This document shows positions 10,039 to 23,250 of a stretch of 64,000 nucleotides of DNA, in pieces. The notes under the pieces were generated by a model. The model was not told the origin of the DNA. It saw nothing but the letters and a program-made list of their open reading frames with translations, and did no database searches. The stretch's first letter is position 1. Each line of letters starts with the position of its first letter. The stretch covers positions 8,182 through 72,181 of the forward strand of contig JAKLEM010000004.1 in NCBI GenBank assembly GCA_022711655.1, in the 5' to 3' direction. Both the position numbers and the translations under genes were made by a program. The stretch comes from Candidatus Auribacterota bacterium (GTDB lineage: Bacteria > Auribacterota > Ancaeobacteria > Ancaeobacterales > Ancaeobacteraceae).

Positions 10039-10070
10039 CGCAGGGTACAGGCATGCCTGTGCCCTACCCC
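10039..10070. repeat. 32-nt GC-rich palindromic REP-like element, copy 2
   Basis: CGCAGGGTACAGGCATGCCTGTGCCCTACCCC overlaps the stop codon of the GT4 gene. It is the reverse complement of the 6136-6167 copy, with two C/T differences within the palindrome and one at the element end. Confidence 0.7.
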
Positions 10071-11170
10071 TTCGCAACGACATTCGTGTACAATTCTAAC
10101 GTCTTAGAGATTGTTGCATCCAGCGGAAAACGGGCGGCGGCAGCTGCGCGCGCGCGCCTGCCGAATTCGGCGCGAAGATCGGGGTTGCCGGCGAATCGCA
10201 GGATCGCTGTTGCCAGTTCGCTCGGCGAACGCGGCGGTACCAGGATGCCGGTCGAGTTGTTCTCGACCACTTCGGATATGCCGCCGATGTCTGTCGCTAC
10301 CACCGCTTTTTCCATCATCATCGCTTCGAGGACCGCCAGGCCGAACCCTTCCATGTGCGAGGGCATCGCGAAGATGTCGATAACCGAGAGCGGCCTGCGG
10401 GTGTCGTCGACGCGGTCGACATAGCGGACCGAATCGTCGACGCCGAGCTTTTTCGCGAGCTGTACCAGGCCGGGCTTTATGTCTCCTTCGCCGACGATCA
10501 GGAGCTCGAGGCGGTTGTCGCTCGCGAGCGCCGCGGCGAATGCGGTGATCAGATCTTCATGCCCTTTGACCGTCGAGAGGCGAGCGATGATGCCGACGAC
10601 GGTAGAGTCGCCGCGCAGTCCGTATTCGCGGCGCAGGGCCTGCGGATCGATCCCGGCGGGCCGTTCGGAGAAACGCGCGGTGTCGACGCCGTTGTGGATC
10701 AGCGAGATCTTCTTTTCGGGGATGCCGAGGTCACGCAGGAGATAGTCCTTTACGGGCGTGCTGATCGCGATGACCCGTTCGCCGATGCAGGGGAGGATGC
10801 GCCGCAGCGTCCGCTTCCTGAAGAAGCCGTGATAGGTCGTTACGTGGGGTACGTGTGTCAGCCGCGAGGCGGCCTGCGCGACGACCTGCGTAACGCGGCT
10901 GTTCGAGTGGATGATGTCAATTCTCTGTTCCTTGAGCAGCGTGCAGAGCTGTGGCATGGCGCGGAACGCCTTCGGGCCGAACTCCTGTTTCGTCCTGATA
11001 GCGAGCGGCAATAGCGTGACGCCGCTTCCCCTGAACCGCTCCTCCATGCTGCCGCCGCCCGATGCGACGAATACAGAATGCCCTTCTTTGATGTATCCCC
11101 TGGAGAGCGTCAGGATATACCAGGTGATGCCGCCGATATCGAGGTGGGTGGAGAGGAAGAGGATGTTCAT
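10064..11170 (-). CDS. Glycosyltransferase family 4 (GT-B, retaining type)
   Basis: 368 aa; N-terminus MNILFLSTHLDIGGITWY; C-terminal EGFGLAVLEAMMMEKAVVATDIGGISEVV motif typical of GT4. Confidence 0.85.
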   Translation of the reverse strand: MNILFLSTHLDIGGITWYILTLSRGYIKEGHSVFVASGGGSMEERFRGSGVTLLPLAIRTKQEFGPKAFRAMPQLCTLLKEQRIDIIHSNSRVTQVVAQAASRLTHVPHVTTYHGFFRKRTLRRILPCIGERVIAISTPVKDYLLRDLGIPEKKISLIHNGVDTARFSERPAGIDPQALRREYGLRGDSTVVGIIARLSTVKGHEDLITAFAAALASDNRLELLIVGEGDIKPGLVQLAKKLGVDDSVRYVDRVDDTRRPLSVIDIFAMPSHMEGFGLAVLEAMMMEKAVVATDIGGISEVVENNSTGILVPPRSPSELATAILRFAGNPDLRAEFGRRARAAAAARFPLDATISKTLELYTNVVAKG

Positions 11171-11218
11171 TTAGGTTGCCATTGGCCGATCAGGTTTCGA
11201 GAAGGAAGTGATTGCTTG

Positions 11219-11376
11219 GCAGCGGGGCCTGACATAGCAGCACTCTTTCAGCATCGCTCGGGTCCCTCCGGCGGGGTCCCTCGCTCGGCGAGAATTTCTG
11301 CGCGCCGACGTTCGTCGGCGACCAAGCCGCAGAAATTCTCAACGTGCTGAAAGAATGCTGCCATGTCACCCACTGC
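11219..11376. repeat. 158-nt nested-hairpin element (family 1), copy A
   Basis: Terminal inverted arms GCAGCGGG / CCCACTGC, a long outer stem, and an inner 13-bp stem GAGAATTTCTGCG / CGCAGAAATTCTC. Inverted homolog at 15555-15713. Confidence 0.85.
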
Positions 11377-11414
11377 GCTTCGCGATCGATAAGGCACTGC
11401 TTTGGAAATGAGAA

Positions 11415-11491
11415 TGGTGGGCGGTACAAGGCTCGAACTTGTGACCCCATGCTTGTAAGGCATGTGCTCTAGCCAACTGAGCTAACCGCCC
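11415..11491 (-). tRNA. tRNA-Val(TAC): tRNA-Val, anticodon TAC, CCA encoded
   Basis: Reverse complement: GGGCGGTTAGCTCAGTTGGCTAGAGCACATGCCTTACAAGCATGGGGTCACAAGTTCGAGCCTTGTACCGCCCACCA. It has a 7-bp acceptor stem, anticodon loop CTTACAA and a GTTCGAG T-loop. Confidence 0.95.
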
Positions 11492-11521
11492 GTATATGAT
11501 CGTGTGTCAAAAAACAGAGTT

Positions 11522-11549
11522 ACTATAAAGCAAAAAAGGCGTTAGTCAA
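11522..11549 (-). promoter_or_regulatory. Sigma70-like promoter candidate for tRNA-Val
   Basis: On the minus strand: TTGACT, 16 nt, TATAGT, ending about 30 nt upstream of the mature tRNA 5-prime end. The -35 overlaps the stop of the upstream GT2 gene. Confidence 0.45.
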
Positions 11550-12325
11550 CTTTTTACCGGCGGCTGGCCGGCGGAGCGCTTCATTTCCCAGTACTTCGCG
11601 TAGCTCATGATCTGGTAGAGGCCGCCGAAGTAGGCGAGGATGAAGCCGTAGAAGCCGTCTTTGTAACCCTTTTTCTTTACGTAGGCACGCAGGAACCTGT
11701 CGAAGAACTTGCGCATCGTTTTAGCGAGGCCGATCTTCCGGTTCTCCTTGAACCACTTGCGCGCCTCGAGGGTGGTCTGCGCGTTGAGCTTCTGGACGAA
11801 ATCGTGCAGGTCGCGGTACGAACGGTGTATGATGTCTTTGGTGAGGTGCCCGCAGGTGCCGTCCATGAAGGCGCGGGGATGGACTTCGGTCTCTTCGTAC
11901 TTGAACTCATCCCGCTTGAAGATGCGCACCTTGCCTGCAGGGTACCAGCCGCCGTAGCGGACCCAATAGTCGCCGATATAGGTCTTGAAGGGGATCGTGA
12001 AGCCGTTGTGCGATATCGGCTTGGCGAAGGTGTCGCGGATCTCTTGCGCCAGCTCCGGCGTCACCCGCTCGTCGCAGTCGAGGCTCATCACCCAGTCGTT
12101 CTTCGCCTGCGCGTAGCCGAAATTGCGGTGCCGCCCCTCGATGTCCAGCTTGCGCTGGATCACCCGCGCGCCGAGGCCGCGGGCGATCTCCGCGGTCCTG
12201 TCGGCGCTGAAATCGTCCAGGACGATCACCTCGTCTGCCCAGCTGACGCTCTTAAGGCAGTCTGCGATATCGATCTCCTCGTCTTTTGCCATGATCATGA
12301 TGCTGATAGGGAGCTTTGTTTCCAT
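11546..12325 (-). CDS. Glycosyltransferase family 2 (small, LPS-core type)
   Basis: 259 aa; ISIMIMAKDEEIDIADCLKSVSWADEVIVLDDFSADRT and a DCDE acidic motif. Its ATG shares one base with the upstream TAA (TAATG). Confidence 0.85.
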   Translation of the reverse strand: METKLPISIMIMAKDEEIDIADCLKSVSWADEVIVLDDFSADRTAEIARGLGARVIQRKLDIEGRHRNFGYAQAKNDWVMSLDCDERVTPELAQEIRDTFAKPISHNGFTIPFKTYIGDYWVRYGGWYPAGKVRIFKRDEFKYEETEVHPRAFMDGTCGHLTKDIIHRSYRDLHDFVQKLNAQTTLEARKWFKENRKIGLAKTMRKFFDRFLRAYVKKKGYKDGFYGFILAYFGGLYQIMSYAKYWEMKRSAGQPPVKS

Positions 12326-13470
12326 TAGAATCTCTCCGCTTTCTTGAGTTGGATGATGTGATCGAGTGTCTTGATGTAAGTGATACGGCCCGTTACGTCA
12401 TTTCCTGTCCCGCGGCAATAGGCCGGACAACCGTGAATAGGATAGAAGGATGCCACCGATTTTGCAAGAGGACTTTCGAACGCCAGGGCGAGATCATACG
12501 GTTTTTTGCGCTTCGTGATGATCCTCCAGAGTGCCGTTATAGTAAGCAGAGCAGGGTTCACGGAGACCACCTTGATGTTTGCCATTTCCGCGATGCCGAG
12601 CTCGCGAAACAGATCGGCTTTGGTGCGCTGGGGGGATACGGCGATATACAGGTGGATATAGCATTCGTTGCGCGCGAGCTGTACTATATCGATGATCGCC
12701 TCCCGGAGACGCCGGCGGTCCGCGACGATCCCGTCTCCTGCCATCGCGAAGATCCTGAGCGGCCGGCCCCAGCGCTCCTCATAGATCTTCTTATTCTTCC
12801 GGAAAAGCTCTTCCTTCCAGGGGACGCGGTCGAGCGACTTGTGCTCGTGATGATAGACGTAGGCGCCGCAGGCTTTGGTACAGCGGTAGCCGGCGGCCTT
12901 TGCGCGCATCGAGAAGTCGGTGTCCTCGAAATAGGCGAGTCCGAACGCCTCGTCGAGATAGCCGATCTTGTCCATGACCTCGCGCTTGACGAGCATCGCG
13001 AAGCCGATGCAGTTGCCGAACTCGACGCAGCTCTCCGCGAGCGGCGCAAGCTTTCGTGCGACGTCGTCGGCGGTCTCGCCGGGGGCCGGCCTGACGCCGA
13101 AGTTGCTGCTCTCCGGGTTTACCAGTCCGATGTCGGGATGCCGGCGGGCGATCCCGAGCATGATCTCGAGGCATTTCTCGGTGAAGAACGTGTCGTTGTT
13201 GAGGATGAGCGCGAACGGGGAAGAGCCGCGCCGCAGTCCCTGGTTGACCGCCTTTCCGAAGCCGAGGTTCTCGGCGTTCTCGATAACCTCGATTTTCACG
13301 AATTCGTTCGGCGAGAAGCCCCGGATAACCGCTTTGGTCGCCGCGTCGCTGGCGTTGTCGACGATGATCAGTGTGACGGGTATCCGCGTGGTCCTGAGTA
13401 TCGACGCGACGCAGTCGCGGGTGAGCTCGGGCTGGTGATAGACGGGGATGACGATGTCGCAGACGCTCAT
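12325..13470 (-). CDS. Glycosyltransferase family 2 with a ~130-aa unassigned C-terminal extension
   Basis: Start at ATG 13470 (MSVCDIVIPVYHQPELTRDC...IIVDNASDA, then YFEDTDFS). The ATGA overlap with the upstream gene supports this start over the 525-aa ORF. Confidence 0.85.
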   Translation of the reverse strand: MSVCDIVIPVYHQPELTRDCVASILRTTRIPVTLIIVDNASDAATKAVIRGFSPNEFVKIEVIENAENLGFGKAVNQGLRRGSSPFALILNNDTFFTEKCLEIMLGIARRHPDIGLVNPESSNFGVRPAPGETADDVARKLAPLAESCVEFGNCIGFAMLVKREVMDKIGYLDEAFGLAYFEDTDFSMRAKAAGYRCTKACGAYVYHHEHKSLDRVPWKEELFRKNKKIYEERWGRPLRIFAMAGDGIVADRRRLREAIIDIVQLARNECYIHLYIAVSPQRTKADLFRELGIAEMANIKVVSVNPALLTITALWRIITKRKKPYDLALAFESPLAKSVASFYPIHGCPAYCRGTGNDVTGRITYIKTLDHIIQLKKAERF

Positions 13471-14369
13471 ACGGACAGTTTCTGATATCTGGTTATCAGT
13501 CCCTGCTGCGCTATGGAGAACATCGTCCGTATCCGGTCGAGATAGGTATGCTTGCTGATGGCGAGCTCGTATCCCCGCCGGGCGATCGCTTCGCGCTCGT
13601 CGTCGTGCTTCAAGTAGTGCTCGGTCAGCTCGAAGAGCTCTTTCGGCGTGCGGTAGACGACGCAGTTCTTCCGATCCTCGAAGATCTCGCCGAACCCGTT
13701 GCCTTTGATCTCGTTGGTGAGGAGCATCGTCCCGCAGCTCATCACTTCGAACATACGCATGTTGACGTCGTTCCTGATCGAGTAGTTGAAGCCGATCTTC
13801 GCCGACGAGTATATCTGCGACATCTTGGTGTGTTTCGCCATCCCGATGGAGCTTTTCGGATAGCGCTGGCGGAGCTGTTCGAGAAGCGTCTTCCGCAGGC
13901 ACTTCTTGCCGTCGGTTCCGACGAAGCCGATATCGAGCGTCTTTTTGATGTCCAGCTTCCGGTGCATCGCAGGTTCGCAGCCGAGCGGGACCCAGTACGT
14001 CTGCCTGCCGATGTGGCGGGCGACCTTTTCCGCTCCCTCTTTTTGCGCGCAGTAGACAAAATCGTAGTGCGGCGCTTGTTCGCAGATCTTCTCGTACGGA
14101 TGCTTCAGGTGCGTGTCGATGGCGAGGAATCCGCAGGGGTGCAGGTATTCCGGGATATCGTATTTGTAGTCGCCATGATCGATCCGGAGGTAGAAGTCGA
14201 ACTCCGGCTTGATCTTGTCGGCGTAGACGGTCCAGAAATGGCGGACGTCGTGCCCGGTCCGCCTGAGGGCGTTCTCGAAATAACAGCCGATCGTGTCGTC
14301 CCGGTCCTTATTGAAGATGATCGCGATCTTGAGGCCGTCTTTTTTCTTCTTCAGGAATTGGAGGAACAT
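13467..14369 (-). CDS. CgeB-family / DUF3880-type glycosyltransferase
   Basis: 300 aa. The C-terminal half (SSAKIGFNYSIRNDVNMRMFEVMSCGTMLLTNE...YRTPKELFELTEHYLKHDDEREAIARRGYELAISKHTY) matches the CgeB-like GT-B C-domain pattern as I recall it. Confidence 0.7.
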   Translation of the reverse strand: MFLQFLKKKKDGLKIAIIFNKDRDDTIGCYFENALRRTGHDVRHFWTVYADKIKPEFDFYLRIDHGDYKYDIPEYLHPCGFLAIDTHLKHPYEKICEQAPHYDFVYCAQKEGAEKVARHIGRQTYWVPLGCEPAMHRKLDIKKTLDIGFVGTDGKKCLRKTLLEQLRQRYPKSSIGMAKHTKMSQIYSSAKIGFNYSIRNDVNMRMFEVMSCGTMLLTNEIKGNGFGEIFEDRKNCVVYRTPKELFELTEHYLKHDDEREAIARRGYELAISKHTYLDRIRTMFSIAQQGLITRYQKLSV

Positions 14370-14462: not shown

Positions 14463-15533
14463 ATGCAGAACATACTGATCATCAACCCTTTCGGCATCGG
14501 CGATGTCCTTTTCACGACGCCGCTGGTGCGGGCGCTGAAAGAGGGGATCAAACCCGCGCCGCGCATCACATTCGTCTGCAACGCGCGGACCTATCCGATC
14601 ATCGCGGCCAATCCCTGTATCGACCGCGTGATCGTCTTTGATCGCGGCGATTACCGGATGCTCTGGCGGGCGGATAAGGCCGCCTGCGTGAAAAATCTCC
14701 TGGCGTTCGTAGCAGACATAATTAAGTCCGGGTTCGATTGTGTTTTTGACATCTCGCTGTCCCGTCAATTCTCGTTCTTGTCGGCCATAGCGCGCGTACC
14801 CGTCAGGATCGGGTTTGATTACAAGGGGAGAGGGACGTTCCTTACGCACCGTATGGTTTTGGAAGGTTTCTCCGGGAAGCCGATCCCTGACTATTATCTC
14901 TCTCTCTCCCGGCTGGCCGGCGTCGAGCCGGCGGCCGGCGGGCTGCTCGAATTTCCGCTGACGCAGGGATCGGCACGCGAGGCGGATGCTCTGTGGGCGT
15001 CGCATGGCATTACCGGGAACGATCTGCTGGTCGGCATCGTCCCCGGCGGAGGCGACAGCTGGGGGAGCGACGCCGGCCTCAAACGCTGGGCTCCGGAGAA
15101 GTTCGCCGAAGCCGCCGGCCGGCTTGTCGCAGAGCGCCGTGCTATACCGGTGATCTTCGGCAGCAATGGCGAGGCGGAGCTGTGCGACTCGGTGCAACAG
15201 ATGATCGCCGGGAAAAGCGTCGTTGCGACGGGCCTGTCTCTCGGCGGTTTCGCGGCCGCAATGAAGCGCTGTCGTGTTGTGATATGCAACGACGGCGGGC
15301 CGCTGCATATAGCCGTCAGTCAGGGAGTTAAAACGGTTTCTATCTTCGGTCCGGTCGATCCGCTCGTCTATGGCCCGTATCCGGGGACCGATCGTCACGC
15401 CGTGATCACGGCGGCGGTCCCGTGCCGACCCTGTTACCGTAACTTCCGCTATGAAAAATGCGGCAACCGCCGTTGCCTCGGGGAGATATCGCCGGACGCC
15501 GTCTGCGATGCCGCAATCCGGTTGCTTCATTGA
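14463..15533 (+). CDS. Glycosyltransferase family 9 (heptosyltransferase-like), paralog 1
   Basis: MQNILIINPFGIGDVLFTTPLVRALKE; NDGGPLHIAVSQGVKTVSIFGPVDP; C-terminal CRPCYRNFRYEKCGNRRC. Confidence 0.85.
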   Translation: MQNILIINPFGIGDVLFTTPLVRALKEGIKPAPRITFVCNARTYPIIAANPCIDRVIVFDRGDYRMLWRADKAACVKNLLAFVADIIKSGFDCVFDISLSRQFSFLSAIARVPVRIGFDYKGRGTFLTHRMVLEGFSGKPIPDYYLSLSRLAGVEPAAGGLLEFPLTQGSAREADALWASHGITGNDLLVGIVPGGGDSWGSDAGLKRWAPEKFAEAAGRLVAERRAIPVIFGSNGEAELCDSVQQMIAGKSVVATGLSLGGFAAAMKRCRVVICNDGGPLHIAVSQGVKTVSIFGPVDPLVYGPYPGTDRHAVITAAVPCRPCYRNFRYEKCGNRRCLGEISPDAVCDAAIRLLH

Positions 15534-15554: not shown

Positions 15555-15713
15555 GCAGCGGGTGACAGGGCGTCATTTTTTCAGCACGTTGAGAATTTCT
15601 GCGGCTTGGTCGCCGGCAGAATGCCGGCGCGCAGAAATTCTCGCCGAGCGAGGGTCCCCGCAGGAGGGACCCGAGCGGTGCTGAAAAAGTGGCGTCCTGT
15701 CAGGCCCCGCTGC
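15555..15713. repeat. 159-nt nested-hairpin element (family 1), copy B, inverted relative to copy A
   Basis: Lies between two plus-strand GT9 genes. Its reverse complement aligns end to end with 11219-11376. The outer stem pairs fully (Watson-Crick plus G-U) on the plus strand. Confidence 0.85.
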
Positions 15714-15780
15714 AATGAGTTATTTATTCAAAAATCCCCCTGGTTTGATATAATCCTACCCTTTGGGAAACTGTGACTCT

Positions 15781-17985
15781 ATGATGACAAAAGACATCAA
15801 AAGCATCATGATCGTGAAGCTCAGTTCGATCGGGGACGTTGTCCACGCCCTTCCGATCGCCCGGGCCCTCCGGGACCGCTATCCGCACGCCCATATCACC
15901 TGGGTCGTCAAGCGGAGCTGTAAGGACGTCGTCGAGGGGAACCCCCATATCGACGAGGTGATGATATACGAGCGCGAGCGGTGGGGCGACCCGCGCAACC
16001 TCAGATCGACCGTGCAGGAGATCTGCGCTTTCGCCCGCGAGATACGTTCGCGCCATTTCGACGTGGTCGTTGACCTGCAGGGGCTTTTCTACACCGGCAT
16101 CATCACCTATTTCTCCGGCTGCAAATGGCGGATCGGCTTCAGGAACGCCCGCGAATTCGCCCACATCTTCTACAATCACCGGGTGGCGGTCCCGACGATG
16201 GACATGCACGCCATCGACCGCTATTTCCTGCTTGCCGATGCGGTCGATGCGCATGTGCGGAAGGCCGATTTTACCATCGCCGTGTCGCGGGAGGACAAGG
16301 AGTTCGTCTCCGCCTTCCTGCGTGACGCCGGCGTGTCCGGCGACGGGAAACCGCTTATCGCGATCAACCCGTCGGCGCGCTGGATAACCAAACAGTGGCA
16401 GATGGAGAAGTTCGCCGAGCTTTCAGACGCTCTGGCCCGGCATATGAACGCGACCATCATCCTGATCGGGAGCAACGCCGACCGCGAGCTCGTCGCGCGC
16501 CTTATCGAGAAGATGCACACCGTCCCGGTCAACGCGACGGGCAAGACCTCTCTGAAGCAGCTCGTCGAGCTTCTCGGCCGCGCCGACCTCCTGATCAGCA
16601 ACGATACCGGCCCGATGCATATCGCCTGCGCTGTCGGCACGCCGGTGCTCGGCCTCTTCGGGCCGACCGACCCCCGCCGCACCGGCCCGTTCGGGTTCGG
16701 CCACGCGGTGATCAGAAAGGACATCTTCTGCAGCCCCTGCTTTAAAAAGAGATGCCGGGACTTGATCTGCATGGACCTGCTGACGATCCAGGACGTGATC
16801 TACGCGATAAAGGTGAATCTGGAGAGCGGCAGCTTCGGGAAGGTCAATCTCTCGAAGGTCGGCCGCATTATGCGCAACCTCGACATCGCGGGCCTTCCCC
16901 CGGCGCCGGGGATCGACGTCCTGGTGTTGAGCGACGGCAAGCCCGGGCATGTCAACCAGTCTCTCGGGATGGTCAAGCACGTCGTCGGCCTGAAATACCG
17001 CGTTTCGCGCATCAAGTATAAATCGGAGCTGCACCGCGGCCTTGCGTGGATTGCCGGCGTGTGCGGCATGGGGAAGGTCGGCTTCCTCAGGTGGGCGCTG
17101 AAGCCGGAAAGTTACCGGTCGGTCATGGAGTCGGTGCCGAAAGTAGTCCTGTCGGCCGGCATCTCGGTGGCGGCCATTAACCTCATACTCGGCCGGATCT
17201 TCAAGGCGAAGACGGTGGTGAGCATGAAGCCGGGGCCGATCAGGCTGACCCGCTTCGATCTTGCGATCGTCCCGATGCACGACGAGCCGCCGAAGCTCAA
17301 GACGGTCATCCAGACGCTCGGCGCGCCGAACATCATAGACGACGAGCTCCTGAACGGCGAGCGGGACAAGCTGCTGAAAGATATCCGGTTCACCAAGAAA
17401 GTGAAGATCGGGATACTGATCGGCGGCGAGACGCCTGATTATTTCATTTCAAAAGAAACCATGAACCATCTGATCGAGAATATTAAGAATATGTCGGAAC
17501 GCCTGGACGCCGAAGTCCTCATCGCGACGTCGCGGCGGACGCCCAAACCGCTTGAACGGCTGCTTGTGCACAACTTTAAAAAGAACGAGCGCTGCAAGCT
17601 GTTGTCGATCGCGAGCCACACGAAGGATAACCCGATCCCCGGCATCCTTGGCTTGTGCACGATCATCGTGGTGACGGAGGAAAGCATTTCGATGGTGTCC
17701 GAGGCGGCCAGTTCCGGAAAGTATGTCTTTGTCGTCCGGATCGACCACAAGGATAACCGGCGCTTAAAGCAGGAGCGGACGATCGATATCCTCGCCCAGC
17801 GAGGTTACATCATCAAATCGGACATGTCGCAGTTGTGCGAAACGGTCGCGCAGTTCTGGCCGCCGAAAAGCCCGCCCCGTGTGCTGAACGACACCGAGAC
17901 CGCTTCGGAAGCGCTGATGAAGCTGCTTCGCACGGCGCAGGCGCAGAAAAAGGAGCTCGTGTGCGCCTGCTGCGTGAATGCGTGA
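15781..17985 (+). CDS. Fusion protein: N-terminal GT9 domain plus C-terminal ELM1-family (DUF1022-like) GT-B domain
   Basis: GT9 part: IMIVKLSSIGDVVHALPIARAL, NDTGPMHIACAVGTPVLGLFGPTDP, CSPCFKKRCRDLIC. From about nt 16900: VLVLSDGKPGHVNQSLGM, FDLAIVPMHD, IATSRRTP, VTEESISMVSEAASSGK, resembling the bacterial ELM1 family. Confidence 0.8.
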   Translation: MMTKDIKSIMIVKLSSIGDVVHALPIARALRDRYPHAHITWVVKRSCKDVVEGNPHIDEVMIYERERWGDPRNLRSTVQEICAFAREIRSRHFDVVVDLQGLFYTGIITYFSGCKWRIGFRNAREFAHIFYNHRVAVPTMDMHAIDRYFLLADAVDAHVRKADFTIAVSREDKEFVSAFLRDAGVSGDGKPLIAINPSARWITKQWQMEKFAELSDALARHMNATIILIGSNADRELVARLIEKMHTVPVNATGKTSLKQLVELLGRADLLISNDTGPMHIACAVGTPVLGLFGPTDPRRTGPFGFGHAVIRKDIFCSPCFKKRCRDLICMDLLTIQDVIYAIKVNLESGSFGKVNLSKVGRIMRNLDIAGLPPAPGIDVLVLSDGKPGHVNQSLGMVKHVVGLKYRVSRIKYKSELHRGLAWIAGVCGMGKVGFLRWALKPESYRSVMESVPKVVLSAGISVAAINLILGRIFKAKTVVSMKPGPIRLTRFDLAIVPMHDEPPKLKTVIQTLGAPNIIDDELLNGERDKLLKDIRFTKKVKIGILIGGETPDYFISKETMNHLIENIKNMSERLDAEVLIATSRRTPKPLERLLVHNFKKNERCKLLSIASHTKDNPIPGILGLCTIIVVTEESISMVSEAASSGKYVFVVRIDHKDNRRLKQERTIDILAQRGYIIKSDMSQLCETVAQFWPPKSPPRVLNDTETASEALMKLLRTAQAQKKELVCACCVNA

Positions 17986-18032: not shown

Positions 18033-20120
18033 ATGAACATATTGCAGATGGTCCCTGAACTGGAGTGCGGCGGCGTCGAGACCGGCACGGTCGACATCGC
18101 GCTGAAGCTCAAAGAGTCCGGCAATAACTCATTTGTCGTGACCAGCGGCGGGTCGCTGGTCGCAAAACTGCGCGACGCGGGCGTCGGCTGCTACCTCCTG
18201 CCTGTCCACAAGAAATCGCTCCTGTCGATGGTCCGCTGTATCATGAAGGTCCGGCGCATCATCCTGCTGGAGCGCATCGAGGTCGTGCATGCGCGCAGCA
18301 GGGTTCCCGCCTGGATCGGCTGGTTTGCGGTAAAAGGGACGCCCGCCCATTTTGTCACCACGGCCCACGGGCACTACAAAACGCACTCGGCCAGCGCGGT
18401 CATGGGGTTCGGAGAGCGGGTGATCGTCCCGAGTTACGCGATACTCGATCACATGGAGAAGGGCTTTGGCGTGGAGAAGGAGCGGCTCCGCCTGATACCG
18501 CGCGGCGTCGACGTCAAGCGTTTTCGGCAGAAAGAGCCCGAGCTCTCGGGCCTTAAGGATTCGTTCAATATCGCGGTGATCGGGAGACTGACGCCGATCA
18601 AGGGGCACGTGTACGTGATCAGGGCGATGGAACAGGTCCTGCGCGAGTGCCCGCACGCCAAGCTGTTCATCGTCGGCGACGCGCACCCGTCGAAATTCCG
18701 CTACAAAGAAGAGCTGCTGAAACTGGTTGAGACGCTCGGCCTGAACGACAAGGTCGTCTTTACCGGGGCGTGCCACGACGTCCCCAAGATATTGGAGAGC
18801 GTCGATCTTGTCGTCCTTGCGACGACGGTCCCCGAGGCGTTCGGCCGGGTGATCATCGAGGCCCAGGCTTCCTGCATACCGGTGATCGGGACGCGCCTGG
18901 GCGGCGTTCTGGATATCATCGATGACGGCGTGACCGGCCTGCTCGTGGAGCCGAAAGATGTCCAGGGCCTGACCGCGGCGATCATCAGGATGATCAAGGA
19001 AGGGGCATTGCGGGAGCTTCTCGTCGACAACGCGTATAAGAAAGTCAGCACGGAGTATACCCTGCAGAAGATGTTCAGTGCGACGCTGCAGGTGTACGAG
19101 GAGGTCGTGCTGACAAAAAAGATACTGATCGTCAAGCTGAGCGCGTTGGGCGATATCGTCCTGATCAGTCCGTCGATACGCGCATTGAAGAACAAGTACC
19201 GTTACGCATCGCTGTCAGTCTTGACGTCAAGCCGTTATAAATCGCTGTTTGCCAATTGCCCTGACATCGACACCATCTTCACGTACGATAAGGAAAAGAA
19301 CGTCGGGGCGATCGTATCGGCGGTGCGCGGGATCCGGCGCGGGCGATACGATATCGCGATCGATTTCCAGAACACCATCAGGTCCCATCTGATCCTGTTC
19401 CTGAGCGGTATCAGGAAGACGGTCGGGTATAACAGGCACGGCGGGCATTTCCTGCTCAGCGACAGCATTACCGCCGACAGCAAGCCGATCGACCCCGTCA
19501 GCCATCAGTTCAAGCTGCTCAGCCTCCTTGGCATTACCCTGGAGGACCGCCGGATCGAGTTCTGGTCTAACGACGACGACGCTCGCATGATCGATAATTT
19601 CCTCAAACGTCACGGCGTTACGAACGGCGAGACCCTTGTCGCCGTCAGCCCGGGCGGAAGTCCCCGCTGGGAGACGAAACGCTGGCCCAAGGAGCGTTTC
19701 GTCGAGCTGATACGCGAGCTCGGGGAGAAGTACCGGGCGAAAATCGTGCTGGTCGGGGGAGAGGATAACGCGGACCTTAAGGAATATTTCGGGCAGCACG
19801 CCGGCGTCCCGTATGTCGATGCTATCGGAGAAACGTCGGTCACGCAGCTTGGCGCCCTGATACGGCGCTGCAGCCTGCTTATCACCGGGGACACCGCGCC
19901 GCTCCACATCGCGGCCGGCTGCGCCGTGCCATTTGTCGCGCTGTTCGGCCCCACCGACCCCCAGCGGCACCTGCCCTCCGGGACCGGCGTTGCGATCACC
20001 AAGAACGTGTCGTGCAGTCCCTGCGGCAAGAGCGTCTGCGAGGTGTTCCTGTGCATGGACAAGATCACCGTCTCCGACGTCCTCGGCCACGCGGACGCCT
20101 TCCTGAAAAAAACGGAGTAG
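18033..20120 (+). CDS. Fusion protein: N-terminal GT4 domain plus C-terminal GT9 domain
   Basis: GT4 part: MNILQMVPELECGGVETGTVD...EAFGRVIIEAQASCIPVIGTRLGGVLDII. From about nt 19120, the GT9 part: KILIVKLSALGDIVLISPSIRALK, GDTAPLHIAAGCAVPFVALFGPTDP, CSPCGKSVCEVFLC. Confidence 0.85.
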   Translation: MNILQMVPELECGGVETGTVDIALKLKESGNNSFVVTSGGSLVAKLRDAGVGCYLLPVHKKSLLSMVRCIMKVRRIILLERIEVVHARSRVPAWIGWFAVKGTPAHFVTTAHGHYKTHSASAVMGFGERVIVPSYAILDHMEKGFGVEKERLRLIPRGVDVKRFRQKEPELSGLKDSFNIAVIGRLTPIKGHVYVIRAMEQVLRECPHAKLFIVGDAHPSKFRYKEELLKLVETLGLNDKVVFTGACHDVPKILESVDLVVLATTVPEAFGRVIIEAQASCIPVIGTRLGGVLDIIDDGVTGLLVEPKDVQGLTAAIIRMIKEGALRELLVDNAYKKVSTEYTLQKMFSATLQVYEEVVLTKKILIVKLSALGDIVLISPSIRALKNKYRYASLSVLTSSRYKSLFANCPDIDTIFTYDKEKNVGAIVSAVRGIRRGRYDIAIDFQNTIRSHLILFLSGIRKTVGYNRHGGHFLLSDSITADSKPIDPVSHQFKLLSLLGITLEDRRIEFWSNDDDARMIDNFLKRHGVTNGETLVAVSPGGSPRWETKRWPKERFVELIRELGEKYRAKIVLVGGEDNADLKEYFGQHAGVPYVDAIGETSVTQLGALIRRCSLLITGDTAPLHIAAGCAVPFVALFGPTDPQRHLPSGTGVAITKNVSCSPCGKSVCEVFLCMDKITVSDVLGHADAFLKKTE

Positions 20121-20124: not shown

Positions 20125-21180
20125 ATGGATGCGCCGTCCAGGTCGATCGAACGTCCGGGCAGCATACTGATCGTATCGAAGAATTGGCTCGGAGACGCTG
20201 TCTGCGTGACGCCGGCGATACGGGCGATCAAAGAGGCATTCCCGTCGTCGCAGGTCAGCGTCCTGACGCATCCCCGTTGCGCGGATGTGTACCTGCACAA
20301 CCCGTTTGTCGATCATATCGTGCGCTTTCACGAGCGGCGTGGCGTTGCTGCTTTTTTCAGCCTGCTGCGCTTGTGGCTTCTGATGATCTCAGGACGGTAT
20401 GATACCGTTTTTCTTTTTCACCGGTCGCGGTCAAAGGCGCTTGTCGCGGCGCTCGCGGGTATCGGGAACAGGATCGGGTTTGACACCAAGGGCCGCGGCA
20501 TCTTCCTGACCGTGCGCGCGGCGCAGCCGGATGCCGGTGTGCACATGATCGACCACCATCTGCGGCTGCTGGAAGAGTGCGGTATCCCGGCGCGCGGGCG
20601 TGCACCCGTCTATGCTGTCGTTGACGAGGAAATGACGGCGGCGCGGCTGCTGCTGTCCGGGCTCGGTCTCGGGGACGGCGAACGATATATCGTCATCAAC
20701 CCTGGAGGAAACTGGGAACGGAAACGGTGGCCCTGCGAACGGTTCGCCGGCCTTGCCGACAGGCTGGCCGCGGCGCATCCGTGCCGTATCGTGATCACCG
20801 GGGGCGAGCAGGATAGAGCGACGGCGGGTGCGATCGCCGGCCTGATGCGGACGCAGCCGGTTATCGCCGCGGGCAGGACAGACCTCAGGACGCTCGGCGC
20901 GGTCCTGGCGGGCGCGGCGCTTTACATCGGGAACGATTCGGGGCCGACGCACATTGCGGCGGCGGTCGGTGTGCCCGTGATCGCGCTATTCGGCCCGACC
21001 GACCCTGCGCTCACCGGCCCGGCGGGGCGCGGCTCGATACGCGTCATCTCGCGGAGTGCGGGATGCCCCGTCCCGTGTTATAATGCCGGTTGCGTTGACT
21101 ACCGTTGCATTCGCGCGGTATCAGAGGAAGACGTTCTCGAAGCGGCGAGGAGAATCCTGCATGAATATGCCGGCGCATAG
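20125..21180 (+). CDS. Glycosyltransferase family 9, paralog 4
   Basis: SILIVSKNWLGDAVCVTPAIRAIKE; NDSGPTHIAAAVGVPVIALFGPTDP; CPVPCYNAGCVDYRC. Confidence 0.85.
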   Translation: MDAPSRSIERPGSILIVSKNWLGDAVCVTPAIRAIKEAFPSSQVSVLTHPRCADVYLHNPFVDHIVRFHERRGVAAFFSLLRLWLLMISGRYDTVFLFHRSRSKALVAALAGIGNRIGFDTKGRGIFLTVRAAQPDAGVHMIDHHLRLLEECGIPARGRAPVYAVVDEEMTAARLLLSGLGLGDGERYIVINPGGNWERKRWPCERFAGLADRLAAAHPCRIVITGGEQDRATAGAIAGLMRTQPVIAAGRTDLRTLGAVLAGAALYIGNDSGPTHIAAAVGVPVIALFGPTDPALTGPAGRGSIRVISRSAGCPVPCYNAGCVDYRCIRAVSEEDVLEAARRILHEYAGA

Positions 21181-22183
21181 CCGCGATCTCGGCAAGATCC
21201 TGTTTATCACGCTCAGCAATCTAGGGGACGCGGTCCTTACGACGCCCGTCCTGGAGGCGCTCCATCGCGAATTTCCTGCGGCAAAGTTCACCGTCATCGC
21301 CGGCCCGAAATGCGCGGACCTTTTCGAATCGGATCCGATCGTCGAAAAGATCATTGTCTATCAAAAAGATTATTCACTTTTCGACCTGAGCCGCTTTGCC
21401 AGGCGGCTTCGCCGAGAGCGGTTTGACGCGGTGGTCGATCTCAAGCATACCCTGTTCCCGTTCGTTATCGGTTCCCGGCGGTTGACGAAGCTTGTGCGCG
21501 GCACGAACAGGAACACGCATGCCGTCATCGATCATCTCTCGAAGCTGAACTGTGTCGGGCCGATCGATACGGCGCATGCCCGTTTTCGTATCGTCGTTTC
21601 CGAGCGGGCGTGGGAGTTCCAGCGTTCGGTCTGGAACGAGCATCGGGTCAGGGAAGGTGAATGCGTCATCGGCATCAACCCGCACGCCGCGAGTTCCCTC
21701 AAGATGTGGTACCCGTCGAACTTCATCGACTTTATGCGCGCCATCGGCAAGGAACGCCCTGTGCGGTTCGTCATCGTGGGAGGCCGGGACGCCATCGACA
21801 TAAATACGCTCGTCGCGGAAGGATATCCCGACGCGATCAACCTCACCGGCAGGACGACGATCCCGGAGCTCGCGTCGGTCGTCGGTGTCTGCAACCTGCT
21901 CGTAACCAACGACAGCGGACCGCTTCATTTCGCCAGCGCGTTCGGTGTCCCGACCGTCGCCATTTTCGGACCCTCGAATTCGAAGCGCTACGGACCGTTC
22001 GGAAACCCCCATATTATTCTGCAGAAAGATCTCTCGTGCGTCCCGTGCGAGGAGGCACAATGCCCGGCCGGCCAGCGGACCTGCATAGACCTGATCACGG
22101 TCGATGAGGTGCTTGCCGCGGCTCGGAAGCTCCTCCCGCCTTGCGCGGCGGGCGGCGGCGAAGAGCCGATCAACCTTGCGTGA
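21161..22183 (+). CDS. Glycosyltransferase family 9, paralog 5
   Basis: ATG 21161 overlaps the previous gene by 20 nt. KILFITLSNLGDAVLTTPVLEAL; NDSGPLHFASAFGVPTVAIFGPSN; CVPCEEAQCPAGQRTC. Confidence 0.85.
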   Translation: MNMPAHSRDLGKILFITLSNLGDAVLTTPVLEALHREFPAAKFTVIAGPKCADLFESDPIVEKIIVYQKDYSLFDLSRFARRLRRERFDAVVDLKHTLFPFVIGSRRLTKLVRGTNRNTHAVIDHLSKLNCVGPIDTAHARFRIVVSERAWEFQRSVWNEHRVREGECVIGINPHAASSLKMWYPSNFIDFMRAIGKERPVRFVIVGGRDAIDINTLVAEGYPDAINLTGRTTIPELASVVGVCNLLVTNDSGPLHFASAFGVPTVAIFGPSNSKRYGPFGNPHIILQKDLSCVPCEEAQCPAGQRTCIDLITVDEVLAAARKLLPPCAAGGGEEPINLA

Positions 22184-22209
22184 AAGCCAGTCCAACCTGA
22201 GGACCCCAG

Positions 22210-23250
22210 ATGAAACCGAAGATCCTGATCGTTCGTACAGACCGGATGGGCGACGTTCTGCTCAGCACGCCGGCGATACGGGCAGTGCGCCGCGCTGTTC
22301 CGAACGCGCACATCGCCGTGATGGTGAGGCCGTACACAGCCGATATCGTCAGGGACAACCCTGATATCGACGAGGTGATCGTGTATGATAAGGAAGCGCG
22401 CGAGAAAGGGATCTGGGGAAATTTCCGGTTCGCCGTCAGGCTTTTCCTTAAGCGGTTCGACACCGCGCTGATCCTGCACTCGAGCAACCGTTCGGTTCTG
22501 ATACCGTTCCTTGCCGGCATCCGCCTGCGGGCGGGATACGCGCGGCGTCTAGGGTTCCTTCTCTCCCACCCGCTGCCCCCGCTCAAGAACAAAGGCGACA
22601 GGCACGAGATCGTCTACTCGCTGGATGTCCTCGAGAAAGCCGGGTTCCCTGTCGGCGATACCCCGCTCAGGCCGGTTTTTAATGTGAACGCGCGCGACAG
22701 GGAAACGGCTAAACGTCTCTTGGAAAAAAAGGGGGTAAGGCCCGACGATACGATTGTCTGCATCCACGCCGGCGCGAGTTGCCCGTCGAGGTGGTGGCCG
22801 CTGTCGCGGTTCCGCGATGTCGCGCGGCATTTTATCAGAGAAAAAAGGTGCGTTGCGGTCGTAATAGGGGGGAACGCCGAGGTTGAAAGGATGGAAGAGC
22901 TTGCCTGCGGTCTCGGTCCGAAACTGCTCAACTTTACCGGAATGCTGACGATCGGCGAGACGGCCGCCGTGATCGAGCGCAGCGCCGTCCTCATTTCCAA
23001 CGATTCCGGCCCCGTCCATCTCGCGAGCGCCGTCGGGACGCCGGTGGTCGCGATCTTCGGCCGTAAAGACCCCGGGCTTGGCCCGAAGGTGTGGGGGCCG
23101 CTGGGAGCGCACGATATCGTTTTGCAAAAAGATGCGGGATGCGTCACCTGCCTTGCGCACCGGTGCGTCGAAGGCTTCAAATGCCTTCACGCCCTTGGGA
23201 CGCAGGACGTGCTGAAGGCGGCGGACGCCATCGTCTTTCGGAAACCATGA
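22210..23250 (+). CDS. Glycosyltransferase family 9, paralog 6
   Basis: KILIVRTDRMGDVLLSTPAIRAV; NDSGPVHLASAVGTPVVAIFG; CVTCLAHRCVEGFKC. Confidence 0.85.
   Translation: MKPKILIVRTDRMGDVLLSTPAIRAVRRAVPNAHIAVMVRPYTADIVRDNPDIDEVIVYDKEAREKGIWGNFRFAVRLFLKRFDTALILHSSNRSVLIPFLAGIRLRAGYARRLGFLLSHPLPPLKNKGDRHEIVYSLDVLEKAGFPVGDTPLRPVFNVNARDRETAKRLLEKKGVRPDDTIVCIHAGASCPSRWWPLSRFRDVARHFIREKRCVAVVIGGNAEVERMEELACGLGPKLLNFTGMLTIGETAAVIERSAVLISNDSGPVHLASAVGTPVVAIFGRKDPGLGPKVWGPLGAHDIVLQKDAGCVTCLAHRCVEGFKCLHALGTQDVLKAADAIVFRKP

What the first reader, a model, noticed from the sequence alone, without database searches (positions are those of the whole stretch)
15781..17985. Single ORF fusing a GT9 domain to an ELM1-family (DUF1022-like) domain
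Seen in sequence: a 734-aa uninterrupted ORF. Residues 1 to about 345 form a complete GT9 domain, including the four-Cys tail. After a ~30-aa linker, the C-terminal ~360 aa carry VLVLSDGKPGHVNQSLGM, FDLAIVPMHD, ATSRRTP and VTEESISMVSEAASSGK. I recognise these as the pattern of bacterial homologs of the mitochondrial-fission ELM1 family, which are uncharacterised GT-B-like proteins often annotated as putative nucleotide-sugar enzymes. Inference: physical coupling of an uncharacterised GT-B domain to a heptosyltransferase-like domain gives a functional context (glycan core assembly) for a family with no established bacterial function.
Basis: partly seen in the sequence, partly recalled or inferred. 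Interest (0 to 1): 0.65.

Follow-up and report, generated by a model that had tools for sequence, protein, structure and literature searches.

The report
Fused heptose and Kdo-type LPS glycosyltransferase
This is a real single gene that joins two sugar-adding enzymes of the bacterial outer-membrane lipopolysaccharide core, a heptosyltransferase and a relative of the recently characterised Kdo transferase KdoT; the fusion is rare but the "mystery" family it contains already has a known bacterial function.

Summary
Window 15781-17985(+) is one uninterrupted 734-aa ORF. It has an N-terminal GT9 domain (Pfam E 2e-55) and a C-terminal ELM1 domain (PF06258, E 2e-53).

The fusion is not an assembly artefact. 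Three other assemblies contain the identical gene. Seven orthologues (54-75% identity) keep both domains equally conserved, joined by a divergent linker with no frame break.

ELM1-family genes were placed in the Acinetobacter baumannii lipooligosaccharide core locus in 2014. One member, KdoT, was shown in vitro in December 2025 to be a CMP-Kdo transferase that adds a third Kdo to Kdo2-lipid IVA.

The window's ELM1 domain keeps KdoT's invariant SRRT motif and the D-x4-H and HD motifs. Its GT9 domain is WaaC-like, with the catalytic Asp and donor-binding residues conserved.

Its closest ELM1 relatives are fused to LpxL or LpxK and sit next to waaA. The downstream GT4-GT9 fusion gene is conserved, which parallels the KdoT/GnaT pair.

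Best reading: a bifunctional inner-core LPS glycosyltransferase that adds heptose and Kdo. It is a rare new architecture of known enzyme kinds and of moderate interest.

The parts
15781..17985 (+). Whole gene: 734-aa GT9-ELM1 fusion protein plus stop codon
   Evidence: Two Pfam domains are found. The identical gene is in loci L082, L083 and L084. Orthologues P0002-P0008 and P0083 keep the fusion.
15781..16815 (+). N-terminal GT9 (heptosyltransferase, WaaC-like) GT-B domain, residues 1-345
   Evidence: PF01075 matches at E 1.9e-55. TIGR02193 (Hep I) scores 167.6 bits, the best of the six GT9 domains in the cluster. TIGR02195 (Hep II) scores 149 bits, above its cutoff. PDB sequence hits are 3tov at 4.8e-36, WaaC at 1.5e-22 and WaaF at 1.7e-18. 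Foldseek TM-scores normalised to the target are 0.80-0.84 against 3tov, WaaF and WaaC.
15835..15837 (+). Asp19, which aligns with the Asp of the N-terminal KTSSMGDVLH motif of E. coli WaaC (motif here KLSSIGDVVH)
   Evidence: The alignment to WaaC entries 2gt1 and 6dfe is. The residue is invariant in all 8 fusion proteins. Coordinates were checked. The catalytic role of WaaC Asp13 comes from my own knowledge of the WaaC literature.
16729..16770 (+). Four-Cys motif CSPCFKKRCRDLIC (C317, C320, C325, C330), a probable metal-binding knuckle at the end of the GT9 domain
   Evidence: The motif is invariant in the orthologues. The same CxxC...C...C motif is in 5 of the 6 GT9 domains of the cluster. 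Local pLDDT is low (60-64), as expected for a metal site modelled without metal. The iron-containing GT9 enzyme TibC is among the fold hits.
16816..16911 (+). Inter-domain linker, residues 346-377 (one short helix)
   Evidence: Identity to the orthologues is 22-53% in the linker, against 54-78% in the domains. No frame break occurs.
16912..17982 (+). C-terminal ELM1/GtrOC1-family (KdoT-like) GT-B domain, residues 378-734
   Evidence: PF06258 matches at E 1.8e-53. The AF2 model of the domain has pLDDT 93.8 and pTM 0.90, with two Rossmann-like halves. Foldseek returns only generic GT-B hits. The domain carries all nine columns that are invariant across 34 family members.
16933..16950 (+). DGKPGH motif (D385...H390), which corresponds by motif spacing to KdoT D8 and H13
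   Evidence: The family alignment is and motif positions. KdoT residue numbers are from PMC12856342.
17278..17283 (+). HD motif (H500, D501), which corresponds by motif to KdoT H109 and D110
   Evidence: See, and PMC12856342.
17530..17541 (+). SRRT motif (S584 R585 R586 T587), the invariant family motif whose second Arg (R180 in KdoT) is needed for activity
   Evidence: R221, R222 and T223 of the domain are invariant in 34 of 34 family members. Mutagenesis of KdoT R179 and R180 is reported in PMC12856342. Coordinates were checked.
15727..15754 (+). Promoter-like site (TTCAAA, 16-nt spacer, TG-extended TATAAT) 27 nt upstream of the start codon. This is a consensus match only.
18033..20120 (+). 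Downstream gene: 695-aa GT4-GT9 fusion, the candidate partner enzyme (its GT4 half parallels GnaT)
   Evidence: Pfam finds GT4 and GT9 domains. It is 44% identical over its full length to the gene that follows the LpxL-ELM1 gene in Omnitrophota locus L085. The same neighbour is present in L081, L086 and L087.
14463..15533 (+). Upstream GT9 gene (356 aa)
20125..23250 (+). Three further GT9 genes at 20125-21180, 21167-22183 and 22210-23250, completing a presumed operon
10064..14369 (-). Divergently oriented glycosyltransferase genes: GT4 at 10064-11170, GT2 at 11546-12325, GT2 at 12325-13470 and a PF13524 GT at 13467-14369, with tRNA-Val at 11415-11491 between them

Best explanation
The gene encodes one polypeptide with two complete GT-B glycosyltransferases that both work on the innermost LPS core at the cytoplasmic face of the inner membrane.

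**The two domains.**
- The N-terminal GT9 domain is a WaaC-like heptosyltransferase that uses ADP-heptose.
- The C-terminal ELM1/GtrOC1 domain is a KdoT-type inverting transferase. It most likely takes Kdo from CMP-Kdo and adds an extra, third Kdo to the Kdo2-lipid IVA/lipid A that WaaA makes.

**Why they are fused.** Both domains use the same membrane-bound acceptor. Fusion keeps the two early branching steps together. The next gene, a GT4-GT9 fusion, then extends both branches.

**Shown here.**
- The ORF and both domain families.
- Both GT-B folds.
- Conservation of the catalytic and donor-binding motifs.
- The reality and age of the fusion.
- The conserved gene neighbourhood.

**Inferred.**
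- The donor sugars.
- The acceptor.
- The order of the two reactions.
- The linkage positions.
For: **1. The fusion is real and old.**
- The 2205-nt gene is identical in three other assemblies: JGI 3300010429, ENA ERZ795055 and ENA ERZ27257480.
- Seven orthologues at 54-75% identity keep the same architecture. One of them is in the same 90% cluster as MDP8263093.1 of Ca. Ancaeobacter aquaticus.
- Both domains are equally conserved (54-78% and 58-76%), while the linker has drifted to 22-53%.

**2. The GT9 half looks like Hep I.**
- It has the best Hep I (TIGR02193) score of the six GT9 domains in the cluster: 167.6 bits against 54-104.
- It matches WaaC more strongly than WaaF in the PDB: 1.5e-22 against 1.7e-18.
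- KLSSIGDVVH aligns with WaaC's KTSSMGDVLH. K204, D275-T276-G277, H280 and GPTDP all align with WaaC's donor-site residues.
- Its closest non-orthologous relative, P0016 (46% identity), is fused to a GmhB-type heptose-1,7-bisphosphate phosphatase.

**3. The ELM1 half looks like an active KdoT-type enzyme.**
- It is a full-length PF06258 match with a confident GT-B model.
- It carries all nine family-invariant residues, including the SRRT arginines. These are the residues shown to matter in KdoT (PMC12856342).

**4. Other fusions of close relatives point at Kdo2-lipid IVA.**
- Most of the best ELM1 relatives are LpxL-ELM1 fusions.
- Two are LpxK-ELM1 fusions.
- LpxK acts just before WaaA in the Raetz pathway and LpxL just after it. 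This pathway order is established knowledge, not something tested here.
- KdoT prefers Kdo2-lipid IVA to the hexa-acylated Kdo2-lipid A.

**5. WaaA coexists with the ELM1 domain.** Omnitrophota loci read waaA, lpxK, [lpxL-ELM1], [GT4-GT9], GT4, deacetylase, GT9. In L085 these genes are followed by ORFs with the Pfam domains expected of KdsB, KdsA, KdsD and KdsC. The ELM1 domain is therefore an extra transferase rather than a WaaA replacement.

**6. A GT4 partner is conserved.**
- The GT4-GT9 gene follows the ELM1-bearing gene in the window, L081, L087, L085 and L086.
- Arcobacter acticola has lpxL, ELM1, a UDP-sugar dehydrogenase, GT4 and a deacetylase in a row. This mirrors A. baumannii KdoT, Gna, GnaT and the deacetylase.

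**7. An independent analogue exists.** P0029 fuses a Hep I-like GT9 domain to a KpsS-like domain, the family of capsule Kdo transferases.
Against: - No biochemical data exist for this protein or for any member of its subfamily.
- I could not obtain the A. baumannii KdoT sequence. Similarity to the characterised enzyme therefore rests on shared Pfam membership and motifs, not on a direct alignment.
- The SRRT motif is invariant across the whole ELM1 family, so it does not prove Kdo specificity. Arcobacter carries two ELM1 paralogues in one cluster, so the family may hold more than one specificity.
- In A. baumannii, KdoIII goes onto O5 of KdoI. From established knowledge of enteric LPS, that is the position Hep I occupies. 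If both domains are active, at least one linkage must differ from the model organisms.
- The GT9 domain misses the curated Hep I cutoff (167.6 against 185.3 bits) but passes the Hep II cutoff, so Hep I is only the likelier assignment.
- The window holds no waaA, kds or lpx genes. WaaA is therefore not shown for this organism.
- The structure search found no specific resemblance to WaaA. It returned only generic GT-B proteins at TM-scores of about 0.5.
Confidence: 0.6

Rival explanations
1. The protein is a bifunctional LPS core enzyme, but the ELM1 domain transfers a sugar other than Kdo. Candidates are another acidic sugar or ulosonic acid, or a hexose. It might also act later in the pathway, for example on a heptose.
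For: - The family is large: 2660 representatives at 50% identity.
- Some clusters carry two paralogues. Arcobacter L091 has two, and A. baumannii OC loci carry several GtrOC ELM1 types.
- Only one member has been assayed.
- The window domain is only 25-39% identical to the stand-alone members aligned.
- It has an insertion of about 30 residues relative to the short forms.
Against: - The arginines proposed to hold the Kdo carboxylate are invariant.
- Distant homologues complemented ΔkdoT, including the Rickettsia homologue.
- Fusion partners LpxK, LpxL and a Hep I-like GT9 all act on lipid IVA or Kdo2-lipid IVA. This argues for action at the Kdo level rather than on distal sugars.
Confidence: 0.27
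2. The ELM1 domain is catalytically silent. It serves only as a membrane or acceptor-binding or scaffolding module for the heptosyltransferase. This would echo the non-enzymatic recruiting role of plant ELM1.
For: - The 2024 paper raised a possible assistive, non-catalytic role for the A. baumannii protein.
- No single catalytic base could be identified in KdoT.
Against: - KdoT was later shown to be catalytic on its own in vitro.
- Every family-invariant residue is retained in the window domain.
- The domain is as conserved as the GT9 domain among orthologues: 58-76% against 54-78%.
Confidence: 0.05
3. The ORF is an artefact. Two adjacent genes were joined by an assembly chimera or a sequencing frameshift.
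For: Nothing found here favours it. Read coverage could not be examined with these tools.
Against: - The DNA is identical in three other assemblies.
- Seven diverged orthologues, from different samples and different MAGs, share one continuous reading frame through a variable linker.
- GC and GC3 are uniform across both halves: GC3 is 0.86, 0.89 and 0.82.
Confidence: 0.01

Closest known systems
KdoT (A1S_2903, GtrOC1) of Acinetobacter baumannii, a CMP-Kdo:Kdo2-lipid IVA Kdo(III) transferase (PMC12856342)
   Same: - Same Pfam family, PF06258.
- Same GT-B fold.
- Same invariant SRRT motif and the same D-x4-H and HD motifs.
- Lies in an LPS core gene cluster.
- Followed by a GT4 enzyme, as KdoT is partnered by GnaT.
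   Different: - KdoT is a stand-alone protein. Its SRRT arginines are residues 179-180, against 221-222 counted from the start of the 370-residue C-terminal fragment used as query (nt 16873-17982), or 585-586 in the whole protein.
- Here the domain is the C-terminal half of a 734-aa protein fused to GT9, and it carries extra insertions.
- The host is heptose-rich (six GT9 domains), whereas the A. baumannii core locus lists no GT9 gene.
- No direct sequence comparison was possible and no activity data exist.
WaaC (RfaC), E. coli ADP-heptose:LPS heptosyltransferase I (PDB 2gt1, 2h1h, 6dfe)
   Same: - GT9 GT-B fold, with target-normalised TM-scores of 0.80-0.83.
- The N-terminal K-x-S-S-x-G-D-V-x-H motif containing the catalytic Asp.
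- The K, DTG and GPTDP donor-site motifs.
- The ARE...FYN acceptor-side motif aligns.
   Different: - Only about 25% identical.
- Below the curated Hep I cutoff.
- Carries a C-terminal four-Cys motif that WaaC lacks.
- Fused to a second glycosyltransferase.
LpxL-ELM1 and LpxK-ELM1 fusion proteins of Candidatus Omnitrophota and relatives (database entries only, annotated 'ELM1/GtrOC1 family putative glycosyltransferase' or 'Kdo2-lipid IVA lauroyltransferase')
   Same: - They are the closest relatives of the window's ELM1 domain (30-40% identity).
- The ELM1 domain is also C-terminal.
- They are followed by an orthologous GT4-GT9 gene.
- The fusion partner also acts on lipid IVA or Kdo2-lipid IVA.
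   Different: - The partner domain is an acyltransferase or a kinase, not a glycosyltransferase.
- They are common (dozens of clusters), whereas GT9-ELM1 forms a single 50%-identity cluster.
WaaA (KdtA, GT30), the canonical Kdo transferase
   Same: It is an inverting GT-B enzyme that uses CMP-Kdo on lipid A precursors. The authors of the KdoT paper superimposed KdoT on it.
   Different: - It belongs to a different family (PF04413).
- There is no detectable sequence similarity, and it is absent from the top 50 fold hits here.
- WaaA is encoded separately next to the ELM1 gene in related loci.
ELM1 of Arabidopsis (mitochondrial fission factor), which gives the Pfam family its name
   Same: Same Pfam family.
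   Different: The plant protein recruits a dynamin-related protein to mitochondria and is not known to be an enzyme. The bacterial context here is LPS synthesis.

Membership tests
Pfam PF06258 Mito_fiss_Elm1 / NCBI 'ELM1/GtrOC1 family putative glycosyltransferase' | Full-length match to the family HMM above the gathering score | tested here: met
   The score is 182.1 bits against a cutoff of 27, E 1.8e-53, covering profile positions 1-302 of 304.
Pfam PF06258 Mito_fiss_Elm1 / NCBI 'ELM1/GtrOC1 family putative glycosyltransferase' | GT-B architecture (two Rossmann-like halves) | tested here: met
   The AF2 model of residues 365-734 has pLDDT 93.8 and pTM 0.90. All the top Foldseek hits are GT-B proteins.
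Pfam PF06258 Mito_fiss_Elm1 / NCBI 'ELM1/GtrOC1 family putative glycosyltransferase' | Invariant SRRT motif, plus the DGKxGH..NQS, HD and SM.SEA motifs | tested here: met
   All nine invariant columns of a 34-member alignment are present. Of 17 near-invariant columns, 15 are identical and two differ (A for T, E for D).
KdoT-type Kdo(III) transferase (functional subfamily defined by A. baumannii KdoT) | Uses CMP-Kdo as donor and Kdo2-lipid IVA as acceptor | not testable with these tools
   This needs the in vitro assay of PMC12856342. The only indirect support is the set of fusion partners and the neighbourhood.
KdoT-type Kdo(III) transferase (functional subfamily defined by A. baumannii KdoT) | Direct sequence relatedness or orthology to A. 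baumannii KdoT | not tested
   The KdoT sequence could not be retrieved. The paper's alignment is an image. The third homologue search was saturated by Arcobacter sequences.
KdoT-type Kdo(III) transferase (functional subfamily defined by A. baumannii KdoT) | Acts in addition to a separate WaaA | tested here: inconclusive
   No waaA lies in the 64-kb window. In relatives, waaA sits two genes upstream of the LpxL-ELM1 gene.
KdoT-type Kdo(III) transferase (functional subfamily defined by A. baumannii KdoT) | Partnered by a GT4 enzyme that caps the new Kdo (GnaT) | tested here: inconclusive
   A GT4 domain is encoded immediately downstream, and this arrangement is conserved across phyla. Its orthology to GnaT was not tested.
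GT9 heptosyltransferase (PF01075) | HMM match, GT-B fold, and catalytic Asp and donor-site residues | tested here: met
   PF01075 scores 188 bits. Target-normalised TM-scores are 0.80-0.84 against 3tov, WaaF and WaaC. D19, K204, D275-T-G and H280 align with WaaC.
Heptosyltransferase I (WaaC; TIGR02193 equivalog) | Score above the curated equivalog cutoff | tested here: not met
   The score is 167.6 bits against a cutoff of 185.3. It is still the highest Hep I score among the six GT9 domains of the cluster.
Heptosyltransferase II (WaaF; TIGR02195 equivalog) | Score above the curated equivalog cutoff | tested here: met
   The score is 149.0 bits against a cutoff of 134.6. Two other GT9 genes of the cluster also pass, and the domain scores higher on the Hep I model. 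The cutoff therefore does not discriminate here.

The most novel reading that the evidence does not exclude
The fusion may be evolution's answer to a puzzle left open for A. baumannii. There, KdoT works alone in vitro, yet in cells it needs the next glycosyltransferase. The authors suggest a reversible Kdo transfer that must be trapped. On this reading, KdoT-type enzymes generally require a physically coupled partner acting on the same Kdo2-lipid IVA molecule. The natural GT9-ELM1, LpxL-ELM1 and LpxK-ELM1 fusions would be hard-wired versions of that coupling. The window protein would then be an obligatorily coupled two-site machine in which heptose addition commits the otherwise reversible third-Kdo addition, or the reverse.
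Probability: 0.2. Interest if true: 0.55.

Novelty: new variant of a known kind. Interest (0 to 1): 0.38.

Why it matters
**What it adds to the KdoT finding.** KdoT was described only in Acinetobacter, with a Rickettsia homologue. The window protein and its relatives show the same domain embedded in LPS inner-core operons of PVC-group bacteria (Auribacterota-like), Omnitrophota and Campylobacterota. In three independent cases it is welded to enzymes that handle lipid IVA or Kdo2-lipid IVA. This is comparative support that a WaaA-independent extra-Kdo step is widespread.

**Experimental use.** The fusions give experimentalists single-polypeptide systems for testing how KdoT-type transfer is coupled to the neighbouring steps.

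**An annotation gap.** The named orthologue is labelled only 'lipopolysaccharide heptosyltransferase II', so its second catalytic domain is ignored.

**Limits.** It does not open a new field. Both domains belong to known enzyme kinds, and bifunctional glycosyltransferase fusions are common in envelope polysaccharide pathways.

Tried and rejected
1. **Retrieving the KdoT sequence for a direct alignment.**
   - The paper's supplement holds the alignment only as an image.
   - My last word-indexed homologue search used a short-form ELM1 protein as query (P0181). It returned only Arcobacter and Poseidonibacter relatives.
2. **The single genome-contig scan.** It chose GT9-domain peptide patterns and returned 80 GT9 relatives, mostly Nitrospira at 45% identity or less. 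The taxonomic hint came instead from a cluster member named Ca. Ancaeobacter aquaticus, plus shared synteny.
3. **PDB sequence search with the ELM1 domain.** There were no significant hits. The fold search gave only generic GT-B proteins, so no solved structure informs donor specificity.
4. **ELM1 as a WaaA replacement.** I considered this because of the LpxK fusions. I rejected it as the main reading because waaA sits next to the ELM1 genes in Omnitrophota and because KdoT cannot act on lipid IVA.
5. **Assembly artefact.** Rejected. Read coverage itself could not be examined.
6. **Rfam search of the upstream hairpin repeat.** There was no real match.
Full report
**The observation**

Window 15781-17985(+) is one uninterrupted ORF of 734 codons plus a stop.

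Pfam finds two full domains:
- Glyco_transf_9 (PF01075) at residues 82-326, E 1.9e-55.
- Mito_fiss_Elm1 (PF06258) at residues 388-714, E 1.8e-53, covering 302 of 304 profile positions.

The four-Cys tail (C317, C320, C325, C330) is real and invariant among orthologues.

**Is the fusion real?**

I could not inspect reads, but three lines of evidence make an artefact very unlikely.
- The 2205-nt gene has zero mismatches in three other assemblies. Their contigs align to the window at 100% over 9.7-18.9 kb (JGI 3300010429, ENA ERZ795055, ENA ERZ27257480).
- Seven other 90%-identity clusters carry the same GT9 + ELM1 architecture at 54-75% identity over the full length. The cluster of P0004 also contains MDP8263093.1 of Candidatus Ancaeobacter aquaticus, phylum Auribacterota, PVC group.
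- Among these orthologues the two domains are equally conserved (GT9 54-78%, ELM1 58-76%). The linker has drifted to 22-53% without breaking the frame. GC3 is uniform across the gene.

Gene order around the fusion is also conserved. The order gcvP, lplA, thymidine phosphorylase, GT4, GT2, GT2, PF13524 GT, GT9, fusion, GT4-GT9, three GT9 genes is shared with locus L087. The window therefore probably comes from a relative of Ancaeobacter. This is an inference.

**What the literature already says**

- ELM1-family proteins (GtrOC1, 14, 19, 22) were catalogued as predicted glycosyltransferases of the A. baumannii LOS outer-core locus in 2014 and again in 2023 (PMC4172580, PMC10327509).
- Deleting the ELM1 gene A1S_2903 leaves a Kdo2-lipid A chemotype (PMC10936431).
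- In December 2025 the purified protein, renamed KdoT, was shown to transfer Kdo from CMP-Kdo to Kdo2-lipid IVA but not to lipid IVA. It prefers the tetra-acylated acceptor. It depends on an invariant SRRT motif, with R180 the key residue. A Rickettsia homologue can replace it (PMC12856342).
- NCBI already names relatives 'ELM1/GtrOC1 family putative glycosyltransferase'.

**The ELM1 half**

In an alignment with 33 stand-alone family members, the window domain carries all nine invariant residues. These include R221, R222 and T223 of the 370-residue query fragment, which are R585, R586 and T587 in the whole protein. It also carries the DGKPGH..NQS, HD and SM.SEA motifs. By motif spacing these correspond to KdoT D8, H13, H109, D110, R179 and R180.

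AlphaFold2 models are confident:
- Whole protein: pLDDT 92.6, pTM 0.79.
- C-terminal domain alone: pLDDT 93.8, pTM 0.90.

Foldseek against the PDB returns only generic GT-B proteins, namely UDP-GlcNAc 2-epimerases, MurG and GT1 enzymes, at TM-scores of about 0.5. A sequence search of the PDB finds nothing. The fold is therefore confirmed, but no solved relative informs specificity. The epimerase look-alikes explain the old 'nucleotide-sugar epimerase' mis-annotation noted.

**The GT9 half**

- It has the highest Hep I (TIGR02193) score of the six GT9 domains in the cluster: 167.6 bits against 54-104. This is below the curated cutoff of 185.3. It passes the Hep II cutoff (149 against 134.6), as do two neighbouring GT9 genes.
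- Against solved structures it matches WaaC (1.5e-22) better than WaaF (1.7e-18).
- KLSSIGDVVH aligns with WaaC's KTSSMGDVLH. K204, D275-T-G, H280, GPTDP and the ARE...FYN segment also align with WaaC.
- Fold TM-scores normalised to the target are 0.80-0.84.
- Its nearest non-orthologous relative (P0016, 46% identity) is fused to a GmhB-type heptose-bisphosphate phosphatase. This ties the clade to heptose chemistry.

**Context and 'Rosetta stone' fusions**

The gene sits in a 13-kb block holding 12 glycosyltransferase domains. Six are GT9, two GT4, two GT2, one PF13524 and one ELM1. A promoter-like site lies just upstream of the gene.

An exhaustive HMMER search of 1.84 billion representatives found 2660 ELM1-family clusters. 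Among the 150 best, exactly one (P0002) has the GT9-ELM1 architecture.

Most of the closest relatives are 600-700-aa proteins with a C-terminal ELM1 domain.
- In the word-indexed search, most of the listed hits carry precomputed PF03279 + PF06258.
- Of the ten long representatives that I scanned, eight are LpxL(PF03279)-ELM1 and two are LpxK(PF02606)-ELM1.
- The LpxL half of P0087 matches lipid A lauroyl acyltransferase models.

LpxK makes lipid IVA. LpxL and Hep I both act on Kdo2-lipid IVA/lipid A. This is established Raetz-pathway knowledge. All three fusion partners therefore bracket the WaaA step.

In Omnitrophota the operon reads waaA, lpxK, [lpxL-ELM1], [GT4-GT9], GT4, deacetylase, GT9. 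In L085 this is followed by ORFs with the Pfam domains expected of KdsB, KdsA, KdsD and KdsC. WaaA therefore coexists with the ELM1 domain.

The GT4-GT9 gene that follows is orthologous to window 18033-20120, at 44% identity over the full length.

In Arcobacter acticola the order is lpxL, ELM1, UDP-sugar dehydrogenase, GT4, deacetylase, GT4, then a second ELM1. This closely mirrors the A. baumannii set KdoT, Gna, GnaT and deacetylase.

An independent analogue, P0029, fuses a Hep I-like GT9 domain to a KpsS-like Kdo-transferase-family domain.

**Mechanism proposed**

The protein is a bifunctional inner-core enzyme.
- The GT9 domain adds heptose from ADP-heptose.
- The ELM1 domain adds an extra Kdo from CMP-Kdo.
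- Both act on the Kdo2-lipid IVA/lipid A made by WaaA.
- The downstream GT4-GT9 protein then extends both branches.

The families, folds, motifs, fusion and synteny are shown. The donors, the acceptor, the order and the linkages are inferred. My confidence is about 0.6.

One real tension remains. A. baumannii puts KdoIII on O5 of KdoI, the position that Hep I occupies in enteric bacteria. If both domains are active, the regiochemistry here must differ for at least one of them.

The rivals are:
- a different donor for the ELM1 domain (about 0.27);
- a silent scaffold domain (about 0.05);
- an artefact (about 0.01).

**Novelty and interest**

Both domains belong to known kinds, and the family's role in LPS core assembly is already published. 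What is new is a rare fusion architecture, mis-annotated in GenBank as plain heptosyltransferase II. Also apparently undescribed is the wider pattern that ELM1 domains are repeatedly fused to enzymes of the lipid IVA/Kdo2-lipid IVA steps in several phyla. My literature searches found no mention of such fusions.

The most novel reading not excluded is that these fusions hard-wire a coupling that appears in A. baumannii as an unexplained in-cell dependence of KdoT on the next transferase. I rate the finding of moderate interest (0.38) and classify it as a new variant of a known kind.

Noticed in passing
window 15555-15713 (+) and 11219-11376 (-); also L090 6348-6507 and L089 5103-5249: This is a dispersed, roughly 160-nt structured repeat.
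- The two window copies are 89% identical and inverted. One lies directly upstream of the fusion gene and the other directly upstream of the GT4 gene at 10064-11170(-).
- It folds into a long branched hairpin: MFE -115.5 kcal/mol, z = -10.5.
- Two further copies (88-94% identical) lie on other contigs of sample ERZ795055, which have similar coverage.
- Four copies share the structure, with 6 compensatory pairs.
- There is no Rfam match, and the element is absent from orthologous loci L081 and L087.
- It looks like a MITE/REP-like intergenic element or a lineage-specific structured leader.
   Followed up: partly
window 18033-20120 (+): The next gene is itself a two-enzyme fusion (GT4 + GT9, 695 aa). 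It is conserved at 44% identity over its full length in Omnitrophota, where it follows the LpxL-ELM1 gene. Its GT4 half may be the counterpart of A. baumannii GnaT. This was not tested.
   Followed up: partly
P0220, P0224 (LpxK-ELM1); P0086-P0107 and many others (LpxL-ELM1); loci L085, L086: ELM1 domains are very often fused to lipid A late acyltransferase LpxL, and occasionally to the 4'-kinase LpxK, in Omnitrophota-like bacteria. These genes sit within waaA-lpxK-...-kds operons. I found no paper describing these architectures.
   Followed up: partly
window 16729-16770, and the C-terminal ends of GT9 domains at 14463-15533, 18033-20120, 21167-22183 and 22210-23250: A CxxC-x(n)-C-x(n)-C motif occurs in 5 of the 6 GT9 domains of the cluster. 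E. coli WaaC and WaaF lack it. The iron-containing GT9 enzyme TibC is among the fold hits. It may be a structural metal site.
   Followed up: no
L091 (Arcobacter acticola CP042652.1) 7118-14109: The cluster reads lpxL, ELM1, UDP-sugar dehydrogenase, GT4, polysaccharide deacetylase, GT4, then a second ELM1 paralogue. This closely parallels the A. baumannii KdoT/Gna/GnaT set. It also shows that two ELM1 enzymes can act in one pathway.
   Followed up: no
P0029 (771 aa, JGI metagenome); P0016, P0038 and others: Other GT9 fusions turned up among the homologues. P0029 joins GT9 to a KpsS-like domain (PF05159, capsule Kdo-transferase family). P0016, P0038 and others join GT9 to a GmhB-type heptose-1,7-bisphosphate phosphatase, in either domain order, mostly in Nitrospirota-like sequences.
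   Followed up: partly
PDB 9grx chain 1 and 7f9o chain 6, hit by model mcc0f4cef211e: A subunit of the chloroplast NDH-PSI supercomplex matched the full-length model at E 4e-12. It did not match the ELM1 domain alone. The resemblance therefore seems to be to the GT9 half.
   Followed up: no
window 12325-13902 (-) and 21056-22183 (+): The mechanical ORFs are longer than the genes called in public assemblies: 381 aa from 13470 and 338 aa from 21167. The start codons of these two glycosyltransferase genes are therefore uncertain.
   Followed up: no
window 40281-47675 (+): Subunits of a V/A-type ATPase are encoded here: A/B-type catalytic subunits and an I subunit. They are unrelated to the finding.
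   Followed up: no
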